Counted from the stretch's first letter, positions 38,413 through 45,454 are shown. The stretch: DNA of 64,000 bases from a virus (IMGVR_UViG_3300045988_117662:16448-80447), one strand, 5' to 3'. Notes: generated by a model not told the origin, from the sequence alone. Made by a program: numbers and translations.

Positions 38413-39432
38413 TCATCGTTTTATCTTTTTAGACGGATCCCAATCCGAAGAGAAAGGGCATTCGTTTTTGTTATGTAATCCAAAGTCACAATAATAACAC
38501 AGTGCTGACGGGCAGGGTAGCTTGTTTTGCGAAACAGGCTGGCTTAGGGTGGCACGCCGCTTGCTATACCTGGCTCCTTCTGCTCCCTGGATGTACGCTT
38601 GAAATGATTTTACACTATTATCTTCAAAATCATACATTTTAGACAAAGTGTCATTTAGCATCTCTATAGATTTTGTTTTACGTTCCTCATCTACCTTAAC
38701 CTTTTGGTACTGCCTGGTCCTGGTAAAGAAATAGATGTTCATATCTGGTAGAACCCCACCATATCTTCTATAGATGTAAAATGAATATATAGGATGCTGT
38801 AAATTTGTTTCCAACTTCTTAGAATCAAAAACCTTATTACCTGATTTCCAATCTATGACATAATGGTGAACTACGTTCTTGCTTTTTATAGCCAGATGAA
38901 GGTCTACCGATCCTACTATGTACACATGAGTATGAATTACTCCATTTATGTTAACAGGCTTAGGAAGACGGTACGGCAGCACAAAATCTTCTTCGACTCC
39001 AACTATAGCGCTGTGTCTGATAAGTTTCTCGCAGGGATTAAGATCACTATCAGCTATCATAAACCTATTGCCGTCTTTTTTGAACAGATCCACAATCCAA
39101 GCAAGAAGCTCCCCGGATTGCTTCATGGCTATCATCATATTTTCCGGTGATTGCCAAGGTATGTCTTCTTGGTAAGCATAGTAACTTATAGCTTCCCCCA
39201 GGTCTTTTCCAGAAGGCTGTCTTCCGTTCTTAAAGAAGTATTCCAGTGTCTTATGGATAACCGTACCATAAGACGTAGCTTCTTGTTTTTCCGTAGACCT
39301 TTTGCCCTCTACGTAAGTCTTATACCATTTCATTGGACAAGTAAGAAACGTATCTATCTGGGAATAAGATATGGCAAGACGTTTCACGCCATTAAACTCC
39401 TTATATAGCAAATGCGTTTCCGGGACCATCAT
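38413..39432 (-). CDS. Cas4/RecB-like PD-(D/E)xK exonuclease with Fe-S cysteine cluster
   Basis: An N-terminal Cys sits in TCPMKWY, similar to the Cas4 CPRK motif. VIDWKSG matches the D-x-K-S/T-G nuclease motif. The C-terminus carries CPSALCYYCDFGLHNKNEC (3 Cys). Confidence 0.6.
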   Translation of the reverse strand: MMVPETHLLYKEFNGVKRLAISYSQIDTFLTCPMKWYKTYVEGKRSTEKQEATSYGTVIHKTLEYFFKNGRQPSGKDLGEAISYYAYQEDIPWQSPENMMIAMKQSGELLAWIVDLFKKDGNRFMIADSDLNPCEKLIRHSAIVGVEEDFVLPYRLPKPVNINGVIHTHVYIVGSVDLHLAIKSKNVVHHYVIDWKSGNKVFDSKKLETNLQHPIYSFYIYRRYGGVLPDMNIYFFTRTRQYQKVKVDEERKTKSIEMLNDTLSKMYDFEDNSVKSFQAYIQGAEGARYSKRRATLSQPVSQNKLPCPSALCYYCDFGLHNKNECPFSSDWDPSKKIKR

Positions 39433-39776
39433 AAGTCATTGTCTTTAAATCCTTCCGGGTAATATACGACATACTTCTTACCGTCCTCCGGCGTCATGGC
39501 GAACTGCATGTAGTTATTACGATTACGATGCTTGCCATCCAATCCTCGTTTCCAATACAGGATACCGTCTATATCCACATAAGACCGTCCGCGTTCGGCT
39601 CTAACCACGTCCGTGTGTAGCAGATACCCGTTGGAAGACACGATCCACACTTTATCCCCTTTGTTTAAATAAGATATTCTTTTTCTTACAACAACCTTTT
39701 TCTTATTATCCAATACAAATTCCTCATCCGTCATATTCTTCATCCTCCTCTTCTTCTGTTTCAAAATCAATTCCAT
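39429..39776 (-). CDS. hypothetical protein (115 aa)
   Basis: ORF. Confidence 0.5.
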   Translation of the reverse strand: MELILKQKKRRMKNMTDEEFVLDNKKKVVVRKRISYLNKGDKVWIVSSNGYLLHTDVVRAERGRSYVDIDGILYWKRGLDGKHRNRNNYMQFAMTPEDGKKYVVYYPEGFKDNDL

Positions 39777-39823: not shown

Positions 39824-39861
39824 ACATCTCCTCGGAGACCTTTCGGTCTCCGAGGAGATGT
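39824..39861. other. perfect 17-bp-stem hairpin/palindrome
   Basis: ACATCTCCTCGGAGACC-TTTC-GGTCTCCGAGGAGATGT sits in the 500 bp non-coding gap between the flotillin gene and the next gene. Confidence 0.6.
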
Positions 39862-40277
39862 AAATCCCGTTAGGGATAAGTCAGGATTTCTCCTGTTAGT
39901 ACCCATCGCCAATGTTATTTAAGGTTTTGAATAAGCAACACTGTTCCTCAAATACCAGAACTGTTTAATCACTTACCTTAGAGCTACAGACTTGGGCAAA
40001 CATCCGTAGGTAACTATCTATTCTTAAATAACGTAGCCTTTGTTTCAAGGCTTAGGCTAATAACCCGATCTCTTAAAGAGATGTATTAAACTTTTATAAT
40101 AGAATTATATTGGTTTAATACTATTTGGGGTTATAACACTGATCATAATGATTGGTCAGTTCTTCTGGTTCTAAATCTTGTCCAAAATCCATGTTAAAAA
40201 TATCGTAATTAGTAAAGCACTTAAAATCACTATCCCCGCCGGCAGGAAATCTATGAATGCTGCTTTTATTTCTTTAA

Positions 40278-42011
40278 TTAGGCCCAAGTGTAACTTTGGG
40301 CCATTGTATTTATTTTTTTGTCATCTCCTTTTAACTTCTTTAAAGTATCTGCAATAGGAAGCTGATCAATGACTCCCAATGCCGGAGCGACGGTCTTGAC
40401 AACATTGTTAAGGAAATTACCAGTACTGTTCTGACCGCCGTCAAATACTGTGATATTTCCGAGGTTAATGTGCTCAAATGCCTTAACCTGTTCTCCAGCA
40501 ATTTCTTTCCACTGATTAACCATCTTGTACTGGATGGCGATCTGAGGATTGGATTCTGCTGCTTCCACCATAGCCTTAAATCCGTCGGCTTCTGCCATTA
40601 ACGACTTTTTCTTACCTTCGGCTTCTGCCTCCAGCTTCATCTGAATAGCTTTTGCCTCTGCCTCAGCTTTTGCCAAATGTGCTGCTGCCTCAGCCTCAGC
40701 CCGGCGTTTGATCTTCTCGGCCTCGGCATCAGCTTGTAAGATAGCCTCTTCCTTCTGGGTTTCAGCCGGCACAATCTTTTCAGCTTTAAGCGCAGCTTGA
40801 ACCTTCTTAGCTTTAGCTTCTTCCACTTCTTTATCAGCAAGCTCTTTTGCCGTTTTCACAGCCGCTTCCGATTTAACTCTCTCTTCTCCGGCTTTCTTTT
40901 CTGATTGAGCTTTGATAACCTGTAGCTCTGATTCTGATACAGCAACCTCTTTCTGGGCATTGTTATAACCCACAGATGCGTTTTTCTCAGCTTCAGCTTT
41001 CTTGATCTGAGCTTCGGAATCTTGGATTGCTATAGCTGCCTGTTTATCAGCTTCAGCTTTATTCTTCCCGACTTCTTCCATTCTTTCGGCTTCAGCTTTG
41101 TTTACTTCAAGTTCTGCCTTAGATTTTGCGATCGCTGATTCCTTATCAGCCAAAGTCTTTGCAATAACCGCAGCCCTATCTCTATCGGCTTGAGCTACAC
41201 CGATCTGTTTTTCTTTATCGGTTAAAGCCAAAGCTACTTCTTTTTCTTTCTTTGTTTCAGCTACTACCGTTTCCTTTTCTTTTTCAGTATAGGCAATTTG
41301 AATCTCTTGCTCTTTTTGGGTATTAGCTACAGCCGTTTCTTTTTCCTTTTGCTGTACAGCAATCTTAATAGCACCCAGCTTTTCCTGTTCTTCGATATTA
41401 GCCTGTGCTTCGTTCAGGGCCTTACTTTCAGCTTCTTTGCCAAGATTCATGATATAGCCGGCTTCGTCTCTGATGTCACTGATGTTGATATTTAGGAGGT
41501 AAAGACCTAACTTATTAAGTTCGTTATCAATGTTTTTTCTTGCCTTATCCAAAAACTCATCCCTGTCAGAATTAAGTTTTTCAATCGTCATTTCAGCAAT
41601 GATCAAACGCATTTGGCCATAAACAATATCCGTAATAAGATTTTCAGTAGATTCAGTATCCATCCCCAAAAGCCTTTCTGCTGCATTCTGCATAATTTCA
41701 GGATTTGTGCTGATTGCTACTGTAATAGTAGTAGGTACATCCACTCTGATATTTTGAGACGACAAAGCACCGGTGAGCCTACAATCTATTTGCATAGGCT
41801 CCATAGACAAAATATCATAGCTTTGAATAATAGGCAAGACGAATGCCGCTCCACCATGATATAATTTCGCCGATTTCTTTTCCCCACCTGTCTTACCATA
41901 AACGACCAAGACTTGATTAGGCTTACATCTACGATACCTTGATAAGACTCCGATGATTGTCAAAATAATCACTACAGCTAAAATAGCTGACACGTACATG
42001 ATTGTTGTCAT
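40278..42011 (-). CDS. flotillin-like SPFH/band-7 protein (YqiK-like)
   Basis: N-terminal TM helix, an SPFH-like domain, then long E/A/K-rich flotillin-type coiled-coil repeats. Confidence 0.75.
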   Translation of the reverse strand: MTTIMYVSAILAVVIILTIIGVLSRYRRCKPNQVLVVYGKTGGEKKSAKLYHGGAAFVLPIIQSYDILSMEPMQIDCRLTGALSSQNIRVDVPTTITVAISTNPEIMQNAAERLLGMDTESTENLITDIVYGQMRLIIAEMTIEKLNSDRDEFLDKARKNIDNELNKLGLYLLNINISDIRDEAGYIMNLGKEAESKALNEAQANIEEQEKLGAIKIAVQQKEKETAVANTQKEQEIQIAYTEKEKETVVAETKKEKEVALALTDKEKQIGVAQADRDRAAVIAKTLADKESAIAKSKAELEVNKAEAERMEEVGKNKAEADKQAAIAIQDSEAQIKKAEAEKNASVGYNNAQKEVAVSESELQVIKAQSEKKAGEERVKSEAAVKTAKELADKEVEEAKAKKVQAALKAEKIVPAETQKEEAILQADAEAEKIKRRAEAEAAAHLAKAEAEAKAIQMKLEAEAEGKKKSLMAEADGFKAMVEAAESNPQIAIQYKMVNQWKEIAGEQVKAFEHINLGNITVFDGGQNSTGNFLNNVVKTVAPALGVIDQLPIADTLKKLKGDDKKINTMAQSYTWA

Positions 42012-42043
42012 AACTTTTAAAATTTAATTGTTGATAAAAAAAA

Positions 42044-42538
42044 TTAGATACTTAATTCTCCTTCTTCGTATTTTATATTCACCTTGTCACCGTTTTTGTA
42101 ATTTTTTCCAGACAAGCACCTCACTCTCATCTGTTCCTGTCTTCCATTTTTCGAAATATTTACCATATAATGATTCTTCCCTGATCTAAATACTATCTCC
42201 ACTTCTCTGCCATTTAAATCTTCCGGACATTCGTACACCATTTCTTGCTTTAACTTAAGAAGTAACTTATATACGTAAAACAAAACGATAAAGAAAAACG
42301 ACCCTATTACGACCCCTATTAAATGGGAACCCGAAAAGTATGTGGTCCAGCTATATCCAAGAATAAAATGTGTTATGCCTTTGAATGATATGATGTCCGA
42401 CAAAGACATGCTTAAATCAGAAGCGTTATCAATGTCAATATCCGTATCCAGATCAGATCCTAATATCGACAATAAAAACTGTATAACAAAAGCAAATGAC
42501 GCTATTAAAGCCATGCATAAAATTATATCATTTCCCAT
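42044..42538 (-). CDS. NfeD-like membrane protein (YqiJ-like partner of SPFH proteins)
   Basis: Two or three TM helices and a C-terminal beta-barrel-like soluble domain. It lies immediately downstream of the flotillin gene, which is the classic pairing. Confidence 0.5.
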   Translation of the reverse strand: MGNDIILCMALIASFAFVIQFLLSILGSDLDTDIDIDNASDLSMSLSDIISFKGITHFILGYSWTTYFSGSHLIGVVIGSFFFIVLFYVYKLLLKLKQEMVYECPEDLNGREVEIVFRSGKNHYMVNISKNGRQEQMRVRCLSGKNYKNGDKVNIKYEEGELSI

Positions 42539-42779
42539 ATCCTTCTGTTATTATTTTGTAAACAAGATCAGTCATATCTTTGATGGATTCTGTATCATAA
42601 TCAATAATAACGATATTGAATTTTTGTTCCACCATCGCATCAAGCTCAATTCGATCAATAGAATCTAATCCAAGTTCTTTAAACGACACATCTTCTTCAT
42701 GAACTATATCCATTTCCGAATTAAGAAACTGAGTAATAATTATATCCTCTATTATCTTTCTAATTCTTACTTTTTCCAT
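42528..42779 (-). CDS. acyl carrier protein-like (phosphopantetheine-binding)
   Basis: LGLDSIDRIELDAMVE matches the ACP L-G-x-D-S-L-D-x-V-E-L motif around the phosphopantetheinylated Ser. The protein is 83 aa and acidic. Confidence 0.65.
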   Translation of the reverse strand: MEKVRIRKIIEDIIITQFLNSEMDIVHEEDVSFKELGLDSIDRIELDAMVEQKFNIVIIDYDTESIKDMTDLVYKIITEGYGK

Positions 42780-43480
42780 TGCTTTCTAATTTTGTTAAAT
42801 AAATATGTTTTTATGTTTTTCAATCGTTCTTTGTCTGTTTCCGCACTTCCGGTAAACAAATAATCCGGATTGCCTTTAGCCGGCGGCGTAGGCAATTTAG
42901 ATACGGCAAACAACCAATCCATTTCCTTATTCTTCTTAGGCTCCAAATAAGGCTCGGTAGCGATCTTAAATTTTTCAGCTATTAAGTCAAAGAGCTTTGA
43001 GTTTTTAAGGTTCATATAGACTGAAAAAGCCTGAGAAGGCGGTTTCCATATGAAGTTACATAAGCTCATTGTGTAATCTCCTGACTCTGCTATATAAGAT
43101 TCCGTTACTTGAAGTATGACCTCTTTCTTAAATGAAGTATTACCCATAAACCAACACAATCTGGATTCCGCTTCTTTTCTGCTGACACCTATGTCTTTTG
43201 AATATGATTCGTACATTCCTATCATAATCTTCAACGTTTCCAGAACCTCGTCTGTCATTTCCGGTGTCTCTATATAATTCACAAAAGACGTTCCTTTGTT
43301 GGTCAATCTCATCACGCCTGATTTTAATTTCTCAACCAGGCCAAGCTCTATATATCTACCAGCATCTTCTTCCTGCATGGCTTCGATCATAACCGAATCC
43401 TTCTGTCTTATGGCAAGAAGATTAGCGAGATCATTAGGAGTCATGTCTGATGCTGTAAGTTGTCTGAAATTGATGTACAT
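42767..43480 (-). CDS. hypothetical protein (237 aa)
   Basis: ORF in an operon with the ACP, NfeD and flotillin genes. Confidence 0.55.
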   Translation of the reverse strand: MYINFRQLTASDMTPNDLANLLAIRQKDSVMIEAMQEEDAGRYIELGLVEKLKSGVMRLTNKGTSFVNYIETPEMTDEVLETLKIMIGMYESYSKDIGVSRKEAESRLCWFMGNTSFKKEVILQVTESYIAESGDYTMSLCNFIWKPPSQAFSVYMNLKNSKLFDLIAEKFKIATEPYLEPKKNKEMDWLFAVSKLPTPPAKGNPDYLFTGSAETDKERLKNIKTYLFNKIRKQWKK

Positions 43481-43482
43481 TC

Positions 43483-43689
43483 CTAATCAGCTTTAATGAA
43501 AATAACATCTCTATTATCCTCCCTCTCCGCGTGACTACACGGACCTGCAATCACATGCACTGCCCCGCATGTAAAGTAATTGAATATACATCCTTCACAT
43601 CCTGCATTTGGCGCCGTAGGTTCCACACATTTTAATCTCACAAGTCCGGCATCAAACACTTCTCCTACTTTAAATTCCTTCTTTTCCAT
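43483..43689 (-). CDS. small Cys-rich protein (68 aa)
   Basis: Five Cys in CVEPTAPNAGCEGCIFNYFTCGAVHVIAGPC. Confidence 0.45.
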   Translation of the reverse strand: MEKKEFKVGEVFDAGLVRLKCVEPTAPNAGCEGCIFNYFTCGAVHVIAGPCSHAEREDNRDVIFIKAD

Positions 43690-44320: not shown

Positions 44321-45454
44321 TTAATATACTGACTGTTCTTCCTTTACCTCTTGTTCTTGATCTTGATTGTTCGTAACGTCTTCCACAGTATAGAGCTTGG
44401 GCGGCGTCGGCGGCTGGTTGGGGTTCACGAACTTCGTCCCTCCCTCCCCGTACATCCATCCATGCCCCGGCAGGATCTCTGGGTGGATTGTATTAGTAAG
44501 CTCTTCCATACTAACTTGCCTTACCTTCAGTATATGATGAAACACCAGTCCGGCTGTCCTGAATGATGTTTTGTTTTCAGTTTTAAACCGGTCAAGAGTC
44601 TGATACCAGTCTTTCCCAAATATCATATACTTGTCCAGCCCGTATCTGCGAGGATTATGCAAACCTATCATTAACGTACATAGTTGCCCCAGCGTATCAG
44701 ACTGATAAAAGTCAGAAAGACGGGGAGGCTGCTCTTGAGGGCTTTTTATCCTTCCTTCTATCTCTCTGTTGAATTGGGATATGATGAGGAAAAATATGTT
44801 TTTATATACTAATTTAGCCTCGTTCATAACCGCCACCAAATCATCTATAGCCGACTTAGGATCCAATCCCATTCTTTTTATCAAAGCAATATGATCGACT
44901 TTAAATATTATAAGACGTTTGTCTTTATGCTTAGTAGCTATATGATATACAGCCGCCTCAAACTCTTTTACCGTACACGGAGCGTCGATGTATATTATAT
45001 TATTTCTGATTTCACCTTGAAGGATTTCAAACATCCTCATCTCTTCTACTGTATTAGAATCTTGCCTTCTTAATATTTCAGGAGCCCGTTTTTTCATATC
45101 CTGACTCATTCTGCGAAGAAGAAGATCTTGAGGATTCATTTCGAACTCGCAATTGACAAGAAAATAATCTTCTGCTTGTGGGTTGATCATCGGATTCATC
45201 ACATTTTCCAATATCTTTTGGGCCACATACGATTTACCCACAGATGGCCGAGCTCCTATGGCAATAGCATGCTGAGGGAAAATACCTCCAAGCAAAGCCT
45301 CATCAATATAATCGTATCCGGTTTTAGCGGGGATAAGCTCTCCCCGCCTGTATTTTAAGATATTCTCATACGCCTCTTCCATAACCTGTTTGGAGGTTTT
45401 GAATATCCTTCTTATATCTATCCTATTTGCTATCTCCTCGTGCATTTTTGTCAC
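44321..45454 (-). CDS. DnaB-like replicative helicase (C-terminal RecA-like domain)
   Basis: H1/Walker A GYDYIDEALLGG...IGARPSVGKS, H2 IIFKVDHIALI and H4 IISQFNRE. Confidence 0.75.
   Translation of the reverse strand: MTKMHEEIANRIDIRRIFKTSKQVMEEAYENILKYRRGELIPAKTGYDYIDEALLGGIFPQHAIAIGARPSVGKSYVAQKILENVMNPMINPQAEDYFLVNCEFEMNPQDLLLRRMSQDMKKRAPEILRRQDSNTVEEMRMFEILQGEIRNNIIYIDAPCTVKEFEAAVYHIATKHKDKRLIIFKVDHIALIKRMGLDPKSAIDDLVAVMNEAKLVYKNIFFLIISQFNREIEGRIKSPQEQPPRLSDFYQSDTLGQLCTLMIGLHNPRRYGLDKYMIFGKDWYQTLDRFKTENKTSFRTAGLVFHHILKVRQVSMEELTNTIHPEILPGHGWMYGEGGTKFVNPNQPPTPPKLYTVEDVTNNQDQEQEVKEEQSVY

What the first reader, a model, noticed from the sequence alone, without database searches (positions are those of the whole stretch)
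40278..43480. Phage-encoded flotillin (SPFH) - NfeD - acyl carrier protein operon
Four consecutive minus-strand genes encode three recognisable membrane-associated proteins. The first is a 577-aa flotillin/YqiK-like protein with a TM anchor, an SPFH domain and EA-rich coiled-coil repeats. The second is a 164-aa NfeD/YqiJ-like protein with TM helices and a C-terminal beta-domain. The third is an 83-aa ACP with a textbook LGLDSIDRIEL phosphopantetheine site. A 237-aa unknown and a Cys-rich mini-protein follow. SPFH/NfeD pairs organise membrane microdomains in bacteria, and a phage copy together with an ACP is unusual. It suggests manipulation of host membrane domains or lipid metabolism, for example superinfection exclusion, a replication/assembly platform, or acylation of a phage product.
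Basis: partly seen in the sequence, partly recalled or inferred. Interest (0 to 1): 0.65.

Follow-up and report, generated by a model that had tools for sequence, protein, structure and literature searches.

The report
Host-derived flotillin pair in gut phage
An abundant human-gut crAss-like phage carries its own diverged copy of the two-gene flotillin membrane-scaffold operon of its likely Bacteroidales hosts, and the carrier-protein gene beside it looks like separate cargo, not part of one machine.

Summary

The window is an epsilon crAss-like phage, 94.5% identical over 8 kb to crAssE-Sib (OR575929). That GenBank record already annotates "flotillin family protein" and "acyl carrier protein".

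The flotillin is 62-67% identical over its full length to chromosomal flotillins of Bacteroides, Parabacteroides and Prevotella. In 79 of 80 of those genomes a homologue of the 164-aa gene sits directly upstream, and no ACP is nearby. The pair is therefore a host-derived accessory module.

It is under strong purifying selection (dN/dS 0.04-0.07). It is nevertheless deleted, through at least seven different junctions, in about 30% of same-species contigs.

The ACP is separable from it. ACP occurs without flotillin in related phages, sometimes lacking the serine, and it evolves about ten times faster.

Verdict: a real but ordinary new member of a known kind. The single "flotillin-NfeD-ACP operon" reading is not supported as a functional unit.

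The parts
40278..42011 (-). Flotillin (577 aa): N-terminal membrane anchor, SPFH/Band_7 domain, EA-rich coiled coil, C-terminal Flot domain. Host-derived.
   Evidence: Pfam Band_7 2.6e-25 and Flot 2.2e-9. 64% identity and 80% similarity over the full length to the B. acidifaciens chromosomal flotillin. 62-67% identity to 80 Bacteroidales genomes. dN/dS 0.037 within the lineage.
42044..42538 (-). NfeD-like partner (164 aa): three TM helices, an acidic DTDIDID loop and a C-terminal OB-like beta-barrel.
42528..42779 (-). ACP-like protein (83 aa) with a DSID motif (Ser40). Separable, fast-evolving cargo.
   Evidence: PP-binding 26.7 bits against a cut-off of 20.8. phrog_5934 8.8e-8. dN/dS 0.40 within the lineage and 0.48 against L085. 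The serine is replaced by Asp in L098/L099 and by Phe in L106.
42767..43480 (-). Conserved 237-aa protein: N-terminal MarR-like winged helix plus a helical C-terminal domain. Core gene of this phage group, function unknown.
43483..43689 (-). Cys-rich 68-aa protein, variable.
   Evidence: ORF. Weak hit to phrog_33085 at 1.5e-4. Absent from the L085 lineage. dN/dS 0.33.
40171..40287 (-). 38-aa hydrophobic ORF that overlaps the flotillin stop codon. Poorly conserved; coding status uncertain.
   Evidence: ORF with a TTG start. Only 69% identity in an otherwise 99%-identical locus. Lost together with flotillin in the deletion variants.
44321..45454 (-). DnaB-like helicase: conserved upstream landmark gene, separated from the 237-aa gene by the 200-aa and 68-aa ORFs.
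   Evidence: Pfam DnaB_C 8.9e-17. phrog_37407 2.6e-40. Present in most related lineages where the locus extends that far; not seen in L100.
38413..39432 (-). PD-(D/E)XK exonuclease: conserved downstream landmark gene; the adjacent 115-aa gene (39429-39776) lies nearer the variable slot.
   Evidence: Pfam PDDEXK_1 1.4e-20. Present downstream of the slot in most related lineages; not seen in L100.

Best explanation
The region is a variable cargo slot in the replication-gene block of an epsilon crAss-like phage, not one operon with one function. The slot lies between two conserved phage genes: the 237-aa winged-helix protein and the 115-aa/PD-(D/E)XK nuclease genes.

In this lineage the slot holds two independent cargoes that are transcribed together.
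1. An NfeD-like/flotillin gene pair. It descends from the two-gene chromosomal flotillin operon that essentially all sampled Bacteroidales carry.
2. A small, fast-evolving ACP-like protein.

Shown here: the pair's homology and gene order match the host operon. The phage copy lies outside the tightly conserved host clade. Where present, it is under strong purifying selection. It is repeatedly deleted in natural populations.

Inferred: during infection the phage flotillin inserts into the host inner membrane and oligomerises through its coiled coil. Its NfeD-like partner's OB domain docks on that coiled coil, as shown for S. aureus FloA-NfeD (PMC11222466). The assembly would act as an ATP-independent scaffold that stabilises membrane proteins and membrane integrity. 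That would supplement or replace the host's own flotillin through a long crAss-type infection. On this view the pair is beneficial but dispensable accessory cargo of the auxiliary-gene type.

The ACP-like protein probably works separately. It may act as a small acidic binding partner, since some relatives lack the serine that carries the prosthetic group.
For: Identity of the proteins.

Phage identity: 94.5% identity to crAssE-Sib OR575929 over 8 kb and 91.7% over the first 25 kb. That genome has terminase, portal and capsid genes.

Host origin:
- The flotillin is 64% identical and 80% similar over its full length to the B. acidifaciens chromosomal flotillin.
- It is 62-67% identical to flotillins of 80 Bacteroidales species genomes.
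- The NfeD-like gene is immediately upstream in 79 of 80 of these loci, and none has an ACP hit within 3 kb (context).
- Host flotillins are 82-99% identical to each other, while the phage copy is 65-70% identical to all of them. The capture is therefore old, or the phage copy diverged on its own path.

Functional constraint: within-lineage dN/dS is 0.037 for flotillin and 0.066 for the NfeD-like gene. DnaB gives 0.035 and the nuclease 0.050. Against lineage L085 the flotillin value is 0.067.

Dispensability:
- Of 79 same-lineage IMG/VR loci chosen through the 237-aa gene, 55 have both genes intact and 24 lack an intact flotillin.
- At least seven distinct deletion junctions are seen, most with 3-9 nt of microhomology, in contigs from several metagenome datasets.
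- Independent assemblies contain NfeD-flotillin fusion remnants.

Slot variability:
- L098/L099 carry ACP-like + DNA methylase + two radical-SAM genes.
- L261 carries ACP + methylase.
- L260, L262, L101 and L100 have no ACP and no flotillin.
- L085/L263 carry ACP + NfeD-like + flotillin.

Mechanistic precedent: in bacteria NfeD is typically the first and flotillin the second gene of an operon. The NfeD OB-like domain binds the flotillin coiled coil and stabilises the oligomers, which hold unfolded membrane proteins (PMC11222466).
Against: - No experiment exists, and no epsilon crAss-like phage is cultured, so the host is inferred only from homology.
- ACP and the NfeD-like gene overlap by 11 nt and are surely co-transcribed here. 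In this phage family flotillin was seen only in lineages that also have ACP (2 of 2), so a functional link cannot be excluded from so few lineages.
- The 30% loss figure comes largely from one large IMG/VR dataset.
- Loss in 30% of genomes could also mean the pair is useful only in some hosts or conditions. That would fit a defence or exclusion role as well as a membrane-maintenance role.
Confidence: 0.55

Rival explanations
1. The pair is a host-interaction weapon, not a housekeeping supplement. The phage flotillin/NfeD-like assembly would change the inner membrane so that competing phages cannot inject DNA (superinfection exclusion), or so that membrane-acting abortive-infection defences are blunted.
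For: The pair sits in a slot that in related phages holds a DNA methylase and radical-SAM enzymes, which are typical defence or counter-defence cargo. Its presence/absence polymorphism within one species is typical of conditionally useful arms-race genes. The neighbouring ACP-like and Cys-rich genes evolve fast.
Against: No PADLOC defence model matches the flotillin or the NfeD-like protein. Both are under strong purifying selection (dN/dS 0.04-0.07), not diversifying selection. The flotillin keeps the full host-like architecture at 64% identity. No SPFH-based exclusion system was found in the literature searches.
Confidence: 0.22
2. One reading: 237-aa protein, ACP, NfeD-like protein and flotillin form one functional operon. 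In it an acylated holo-ACP supplies lipid to, or modifies, the flotillin microdomain or a phage product.
For: The genes overlap or abut on one strand, and no terminator signal above chance lies between them. The ACP serine is conserved in nearly all of 54 ACP alleles of this lineage. Both phage lineages with flotillin also have ACP.
Against: The host operon has no ACP. ACP occurs without flotillin in L098/L099 and L261. The ACP serine is Asp in L098/L099 and Phe in L106. Deletions remove flotillin and leave ACP in 23 of 24 variants. No acyl-handling enzyme or phosphopantetheinyl transferase is annotated in the 151-kb relative. ACP evolves about ten times faster than flotillin.
Confidence: 0.1
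3. Hijack by mimicry: at 64% identity the phage flotillin co-assembles with host flotillin and poisons or re-targets host membrane microdomains. It would act as a dominant-negative takeover factor, not as a helper.
For: High similarity across the SPFH and C-terminal oligomerisation regions. The phage copy has extra repeats in the coiled-coil region where NfeD binds. Its NfeD-like partner is much more diverged from the host's (30-42% against 62-67%). Intact NfeD-like genes persist in 19 flotillin-minus variants, which hints that the NfeD-like protein can act on host flotillin.
Against: This is inference from sequence only, with no data on co-assembly. Strong conservation of the whole protein fits a working scaffold as well as a poison.
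Confidence: 0.1
4. The pair is a non-functional passenger: recently captured host DNA that is decaying.
For: It is lost in about 30% of contigs, through many independent deletions.
Against: dN/dS is 0.04-0.07 both within the lineage and between two lineages whose synonymous sites are nearly saturated. ORFs are intact in 55 of 79 loci. The phage copy is only 65-70% identical to every sampled host, so the capture is not recent.
Confidence: 0.03

Closest known systems
Chromosomal NfeD-like/flotillin two-gene operon of Bacteroidales (e.g. B. acidifaciens, locus L093 6001-6498 and 6521-8173)
   Same: Same gene order and spacing and the same domain architecture. The flotillin is 62-67% identical over its full length, and the partner is 30-42% identical with the same TM + acidic loop + beta-barrel layout.
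   Different: The phage copy lies outside the 82-99%-identical host clade. It has extra coiled-coil repeats (46 gap positions in the alignment). It is embedded in a phage replication-gene block, next to an ACP-like gene that the host locus lacks.
S. aureus nfeD-floA, B. subtilis yuaF-floT, E. coli yqiJ-yqiK (bacterial flotillin operons)
   Different: No detectable sequence similarity between the 164-aa protein and the Pfam NfeD/YqiJ models. The flotillin scores only 147 bits on the FloT equivalog model, whose cut-off is 700.
Other phage-encoded flotillins (Vibrio phage KIT04 'flotillin family protein'; gut phage MT835492)
   Same: SPFH proteins with an N-terminal anchor encoded by large virulent-type phages.
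   Different: Only 25-29% identical, so these are independent acquisitions. No recognisable NfeD-like gene or ACP was seen beside them.
Phage acyl carrier proteins (PHROG 5934; Yersinia jumbo phage fHe-Yen9-04 g153)
   Same: Small acidic PP-binding-fold proteins with a DSL-type motif.
   Different: Very weak similarity (41% over 49 residues, E 9e-3). In this phage family the serine is not universally kept, and no partner enzymes are evident.
GenBank OR575929 (crAssE-Sib, epsilon crAss-like phage; Viruses 2024, PMC11054128)
   Same: Same species-level phage, with the same five genes in the same order. Three are annotated as 'flotillin family protein', 'transmembrane protein' and 'acyl carrier protein'.
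   Different: The paper's main text never mentions flotillin or ACP. The NfeD-like nature, the host origin, the population polymorphism and the slot structure are not described there.

Membership tests
Flotillin / SPFH superfamily | SPFH (Band_7) domain | tested here: met
   Pfam PF01145, E 2.6e-25, 89.9 bits against a cut-off of 23.6, residues 30-211, covering profile positions 4-176 of 176.
Flotillin / SPFH superfamily | C-terminal flotillin domain and EA-rich coiled coil | tested here: met
   Pfam PF15975 Flot, E 2.2e-9, 37.9 bits against a cut-off of 27, residues 450-559. EA-rich repeats are visible in the translation.
Flotillin / SPFH superfamily | N-terminal membrane anchor | tested here: met
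   A hydrophobic stretch at about residues 4-24 (IMYVSAILAVVIILTIIGVLS), read directly from the translation. It is conserved in the host homologue.
Flotillin / SPFH superfamily | Equivalog of B. subtilis FloT (NCBIfam NF058507) | tested here: not met
   147 bits against a curated cut-off of 700. It belongs to the flotillin family but is not a FloT orthologue.
Flotillin / SPFH superfamily | Oligomerisation and microdomain localisation | not testable with these tools
   Needs microscopy, membrane fractionation or cryo-EM.
NfeD (short, OB-domain type: YuaF/YqiJ-like) | Match to NfeD/YqiJ sequence profiles | tested here: not met
   No Pfam or NCBIfam hit for the window protein or for any of 45 family members at E up to 1. 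No sequence hit in the PDB.
NfeD (short, OB-domain type: YuaF/YqiJ-like) | C-terminal closed beta-barrel resembling solved NfeD C-domains | tested here: met
NfeD (short, OB-domain type: YuaF/YqiJ-like) | N-terminal transmembrane helices | tested here: met
   Predicted helices at residues 2-25, 52-69 and 72-96, all hydrophobic in sequence.
NfeD (short, OB-domain type: YuaF/YqiJ-like) | Gene immediately upstream of an SPFH gene in one operon | tested here: met
   A 32-nt gap in the window. The same arrangement is seen in 79 of 80 Bacteroidales loci, in L085/L263 and in L087/L095.
NfeD (short, OB-domain type: YuaF/YqiJ-like) | Physical binding to the flotillin coiled coil | not testable with these tools
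Needs a two-hybrid assay, a pull-down or AF-multimer.
Acyl carrier protein | PP-binding fold or profile | tested here: met
   Pfam PF00550, 26.7 bits against a cut-off of 20.8, partial coverage of profile positions 10-49 of 67. phrog_5934 8.8e-8.
Acyl carrier protein | Conserved serine of the DSL motif | tested here: inconclusive
   Present in the window (Ser40, LGLDSID) and in nearly all alleles of the lineage. Replaced by Asp in L098/L099, by Phe in L106 and by Tyr in L177.
Acyl carrier protein | Curated equivalog scores (AcpP and relatives) | tested here: not met
   The best NCBIfam ACP models score 24-29 bits against cut-offs of 66-106.
Acyl carrier protein | Partner enzymes (PPTase, acyltransferase, synthases) in the same genome | tested here: not met
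   None is annotated among the 206 features of OR575929. Annotation was the only basis; hypothetical proteins were not all searched.
Acyl carrier protein | 4'-phosphopantetheinylation and acyl loading | not testable with these tools
   Needs mass spectrometry.
MarR-like winged-helix DNA-binding proteins (237-aa protein) | Winged helix-turn-helix fold | tested here: met
MarR-like winged-helix DNA-binding proteins (237-aa protein) | MarR sequence family and dimerisation helices | tested here: not met
   No Pfam hit for the window protein. The C-terminal 140 residues form a different helical domain with no match.

The most novel reading that the evidence does not exclude
Either of two readings remains open.
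(a) The phage flotillin/NfeD-like cage forms a dedicated membrane platform on which this crAss-like phage anchors its replication or assembly machinery. It is encoded inside the replication-gene block.
(b) The ACP-fold protein has been repurposed. It would be a prosthetic-group-independent acidic partner of the adjacent winged-helix protein, which would explain the Ser-less variants and the fast evolution. That would be a new regulatory use of the ACP fold in phages.
Probability: 0.15. Interest if true: 0.65.

Novelty: new member of a known kind. Interest (0 to 1): 0.38.

Why it matters
What bacterial flotillins do is still debated. Here a very abundant human-gut phage has kept a diverged copy of the host NfeD-like/flotillin pair under strong purifying selection, while natural populations also contain clean deletion variants. 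That offers a ready-made natural experiment. Comparing flotillin-plus and flotillin-minus genomes across hosts, individuals and time would show when a flotillin scaffold pays for a phage.

The pair also points to Bacteroidales as hosts of the uncultured epsilon crAss-like phages. It also shows that Bacteroidales flotillin partners form an NfeD-like family that current Pfam and NCBIfam models miss.

The result is not a new kind of system, and the flotillin and ACP annotations are already in GenBank.

Tried and rejected
- A literature search for 'csAssE' returned only irrelevant papers. The correct name, crAssE-Sib, found the source paper, which does not discuss these genes.
- Searches for 'flotillin' with 'crAss-like', and for phage-encoded SPFH/NfeD, found nothing on phage flotillins. 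One 2026 paper concerns a prophage integrating into host floA, not a phage-encoded flotillin.
- PADLOC gave no defence-family hit for the flotillin or the NfeD-like protein.
- Sequence searches of the NfeD-like profile against the PDB found nothing relevant.
- The afdb50 fold library was unavailable, so full-length comparison with AlphaFold NfeD/YqiJ models could not be done.
- Sigma-70 promoter, Bacteroides -7/-33 promoter and terminator scans gave no signal above shuffled controls, so transcription-unit boundaries are inferred from gene packing alone.
- A viral-contig scan with a reordered 237-aa alignment, meant to reach distant lineages, was swamped by the same abundant lineage. It did yield a locus set not selected on flotillin for the deletion count.
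- The idea that the 237-aa protein and ACP are an obligate conserved pair was considered. It was dropped after four lineages were found with the 237-aa gene but no ACP.
- FabT (a MarR-type regulator that binds acyl-ACP, PDB 6jbx) appears among the wHTH fold hits. It is no better than dozens of other MarR proteins, so nothing is built on it.
Full report
**Observation.** The six-frame ORF list shows the minus-strand genes exactly as described.
- 40278-42011: 577 aa
- 42044-42538: 164 aa
- 42528-42779: 83 aa
- 42767-43480: 237 aa
- 43483-43689: 68 aa, Cys-rich

The 237-aa and 83-aa genes overlap by 13 nt. The 83-aa and 164-aa genes overlap by 11 nt. A 32-nt gap precedes the 577-aa gene. A further 38-aa hydrophobic ORF (40171-40287) overlaps the end of the large gene.

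**Profile searches.**
- The 577-aa protein matches Pfam Band_7 (E 2.6e-25, 89.9 bits) and Flot (E 2.2e-9, 37.9 bits), both above their curated cut-offs.
- It matches the NCBIfam FloT model at E 7.8e-43 but far below the equivalog cut-off. It is a flotillin-family protein, not a FloT orthologue.
- The 83-aa protein passes Pfam PP-binding (26.7 bits, cut-off 20.8) and hits PHROG 5934 'acyl carrier protein'. It carries LGLDSIDRIEL, with the serine at position 40.
- The 164-aa, 237-aa and 68-aa proteins have no Pfam or NCBIfam match.
- No PADLOC defence model matches the flotillin or its partner.

**What genome this is.**
- The 8 kb around the finding is 94.5% identical to GenBank OR575929. The record is named 'csAssE-Sib' and the paper calls the phage crAssE-Sib. 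It is a 151-kb genome from the human gut.
- The first 25 kb of the window match the same record at 91.7%.
- That genome encodes terminase, portal, major capsid, crAss-type ring and muzzle proteins, and BACON-type carbohydrate-binding proteins.
- It was published as an epsilon crAss-like phage (PMC11054128).
- The record already labels the three genes 'flotillin family protein', 'transmembrane protein' and 'acyl carrier protein'. The paper's main text mentions neither flotillin nor ACP.
- The phage is common. 165 IMG/VR stretches encode a relative of the flotillin, and the best 80, which were kept, are 97-99% identical to it.

**The 164-aa protein.**
- A first homologue search found only the same phage lineage plus a few distant relatives, none with Pfam domains.
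- A profile of four diverse members then found 455 proteins. These include 165-aa 'hypothetical proteins' of Bacteroides at 35-40% identity.
- In B. acidifaciens this gene lies directly upstream of a 550-aa Band_7/Flot protein.
- An AlphaFold2 model built on 45 family members (pLDDT 80) has three membrane helices, a disordered acidic loop (DTDIDID) and a confident C-terminal beta-domain.
- No member of the family matches Pfam NfeD/YqiJ even at E = 1, and profile searches of PDB sequences find nothing.
- The protein is therefore NfeD-like by fold, topology and gene position, but it fails the sequence-profile test. I file it as an NfeD-like partner, probably a remote homologue, and not as a demonstrated family member.

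**Origin of the pair.**
- The phage flotillin is 64% identical and 80% similar over essentially its whole length to the B. acidifaciens chromosomal flotillin.
- A scan of one genome per prokaryotic species found 149 relatives. The best 80 are all Bacteroidales (Bacteroides, Parabacteroides, Phocaeicola, Prevotella, Leyella, Xylanibacter) at 62-67% identity.
- In 79 of these 80 loci a homologue of the 164-aa gene (30-42% identity) lies just upstream. The one exception has only 50 nt of upstream sequence. None has a hit to the phage ACP within 3 kb.
- Bacterial flotillins from different genera are 82-99% identical to one another. The phage protein is 65-70% identical to all of them and branches outside that cluster.
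- The pair is therefore a copy of a near-universal Bacteroidales operon that has long evolved on its own path. This matches the general rule that NfeD is the first and flotillin the second gene of a bacterial operon (PMC11222466).

**Is it a functional unit with the ACP?** Related phages answer this. The slot between the 237-aa gene and the 115-aa/PD-(D/E)XK genes holds the following.

| Lineage (identity of 237-aa protein) | Slot contents |
|---|---|
| This window | ACP, NfeD-like, flotillin |
| L085/L263 (75-76%; flotillin 83%) | ACP, NfeD-like, flotillin |
| L098/L099 (59%) | ACP-like, DNA methylase, two radical-SAM genes |
| L261 (58%) | uncalled ACP-like ORF with LGLDSLD, DNA methylase |
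| L260 (62%) | no ACP, no flotillin |
| L262 (56%) | no ACP, no flotillin |
| L101 (47%) | no ACP, no flotillin |
| L100 (37%) | no ACP, no flotillin |

- Conversely, NfeD-like/flotillin pairs occur without ACP in all the bacterial loci. They also occur without ACP in two other contigs, L087 and L095.
- The ACP-like protein of L098/L099 has Asp in place of the serine. A divergent allele in L106 has Phe.
- The region is thus a variable cargo slot, and ACP and the flotillin pair are separable cargoes. With only two flotillin-bearing phage lineages, both also carrying ACP, a link cannot be formally excluded.

**Population variation.**
- I compared the window's proteins by tblastn with all fetched loci. 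For counting I used the 80 loci retrieved through the 237-aa gene, which were not selected for flotillin.
- Of 79 same-lineage loci that span the slot, 55 have intact NfeD-like and flotillin genes and 24 do not.
- The 24 fall into at least seven junction types: 42041|40198 (the commonest), 42165|40135, 41933|39995, 41873|40297, 41322|40305, 42517|40671, and a replacement between 42739 and 40200. Most of these junctions overlap by 3-9 nt, which suggests microhomology.
- The variants occur in contigs from several IMG/VR datasets. Independent assemblies contain the corresponding in-frame NfeD-flotillin fusion proteins.
- The NfeD-like ORF is intact in 19 of the flotillin-minus loci.
- The flotillin is therefore dispensable and repeatedly lost.

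**Selection.**

| Gene | Within-lineage dN/dS |
|---|---|
| Flotillin | 0.037 |
| NfeD-like | 0.066 |
| DnaB | 0.035 |
| 237-aa protein | 0.044 |
| PD-(D/E)XK nuclease | 0.050 |
| ACP-like | 0.40 |
| Cys-rich ORF | 0.33 |

- Against lineage L085 the flotillin gives 0.067 and the ACP 0.48.
- Where it is present, the flotillin pair is maintained as a working protein pair. The ACP-like protein is under much weaker or diversifying constraint.

**The 237-aa protein.**
- An exhaustive profile search finds 258 representative clusters among 1.84 billion proteins.
- 29 of 43 distant members hit PHROG 32643, of unknown function.
- The only significant viral fold match is an uncharacterised protein of Cellulophaga phage phi14:2.
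- It is a conserved gene of this phage group, probably DNA-binding, with unknown function.

**Mechanism.**
- Shown: the homology, architecture, gene order, host origin, selection and dispensability described above.
- Inferred: the phage flotillin anchors in the host inner membrane and oligomerises through its EA-rich coiled coil, with the NfeD-like OB domain docked on that coiled coil. This is by analogy with FloA-NfeD of S. aureus. There the NfeD OB-like domain binds the flotillin coiled coil and stabilises the oligomers, and the complex holds unfolded membrane proteins without ATP (PMC11222466).
- The assembly would buffer membrane-protein and membrane integrity during infection. It would be a conditionally useful accessory function.
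- The main rival is an exclusion or counter-defence role. It fits the nature of the slot and the polymorphism, but not the strong purifying selection or the lack of any defence-family match.
- A single ACP-flotillin lipid machine is the least supported of the functional models.

**Novelty and score.**
- Phage flotillins are rare. Homologues occur in 9 of 50,697 phage records, most of them fragments; examples are Vibrio phage KIT04 and one other gut phage. They are not unknown, and this one is already annotated in GenBank.
- New here: the NfeD-like identification, the Bacteroidales origin, the slot structure, the separability of the ACP, and the selection and deletion data.
- This is a new member of a known kind, namely host-derived accessory genes in phages. 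It is of moderate interest.

Noticed in passing
window 39895-40134 (-), within the 390-nt gap between the 38-aa ORF and the 115-aa ORF: A full-length HEARO RNA (Rfam RF02033, the IscB-associated omega-RNA family) scores 105.7 bits against a gathering score of 83, E about 1e-21. No IscB-sized ORF is adjacent, so it is an orphan copy. The stretch 40133-39777 that contains it is absent from many related contigs and present in others, independently of the flotillin deletion, so it behaves as a roughly 355-nt indel. The relative crAssE-Sib carries two TnpB genes elsewhere.
   Followed up: partly
window 39825-39860 (-): A perfect 16-bp hairpin, CATCTCCTCGGAGACC-GAAA-GGTCTCCGAGGAGATG, lies at the 3' side of the HEARO-containing indel. 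No T-run follows it. It may be the end of the inserted element or a structured RNA.
   Followed up: no
window 42528-42779 and 43483-43689 (-), and the same genes in loci L002-L179: The ACP-like and Cys-rich genes are local hot spots of amino-acid change (dN/dS 0.40 and 0.33) between neighbours that are almost invariant (the 200-aa protein gives 0.007). There are 54 different ACP protein alleles among about 160 loci, including one 35%-identical replacement allele without the serine (L106).
   Followed up: partly
L098 5941-8946 and L099 (related ~154-kb phage); L261 5936-6769: In related epsilon-type phages the same slot holds a cytosine DNA methylase and two radical-SAM proteins instead of the flotillin pair. 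This suggests a hot spot for host-interaction or DNA-modification cargo.
   Followed up: no
Proteins P0020, P0028, P0029, P0032; loci L172, L131/L137/L163: Natural in-frame fusions join the N-terminal membrane part of the NfeD-like protein to the C-terminal Flot domain of the flotillin, each with a different breakpoint. They are remnants of independent deletions.
   Followed up: partly
window 40278-40310 (3' end of the flotillin gene): The window's flotillin is 577 aa, while most alleles and crAssE-Sib end after 566 aa (…LKKLKGDDKK). The window copy has an 11-residue C-terminal extension, and the downstream small ORF differs accordingly.
   Followed up: no
L095 6001-8580 (104-kb metagenome contig): Another large contig whose genes mostly lack Pfam hits, and which is therefore phage-like, carries an NfeD-like gene (40% identity) followed by a 683-aa Band_7 protein (32% identity). 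This may be a separate phage acquisition of a flotillin pair, again without an ACP.
   Followed up: no
L090 (GenBank MT836799.1, 'UNVERIFIED Bacteriophage sp.'): This 8.7-kb 'phage' record carries a MurA gene and a GNAT acetyltransferase next to its NfeD-like gene. It looks like bacterial chromosomal DNA, not phage.
   Followed up: no
L237 (Phocaeicola vulgatus) compared with the other Bacteroidales loci L180-L259: The P. vulgatus flotillin found by the scan is only 70-73% identical to those of other Bacteroidales, which are 82-99% identical to each other. It is about as divergent as the phage copy and may be a paralogue or a fast-evolving lineage.
   Followed up: no
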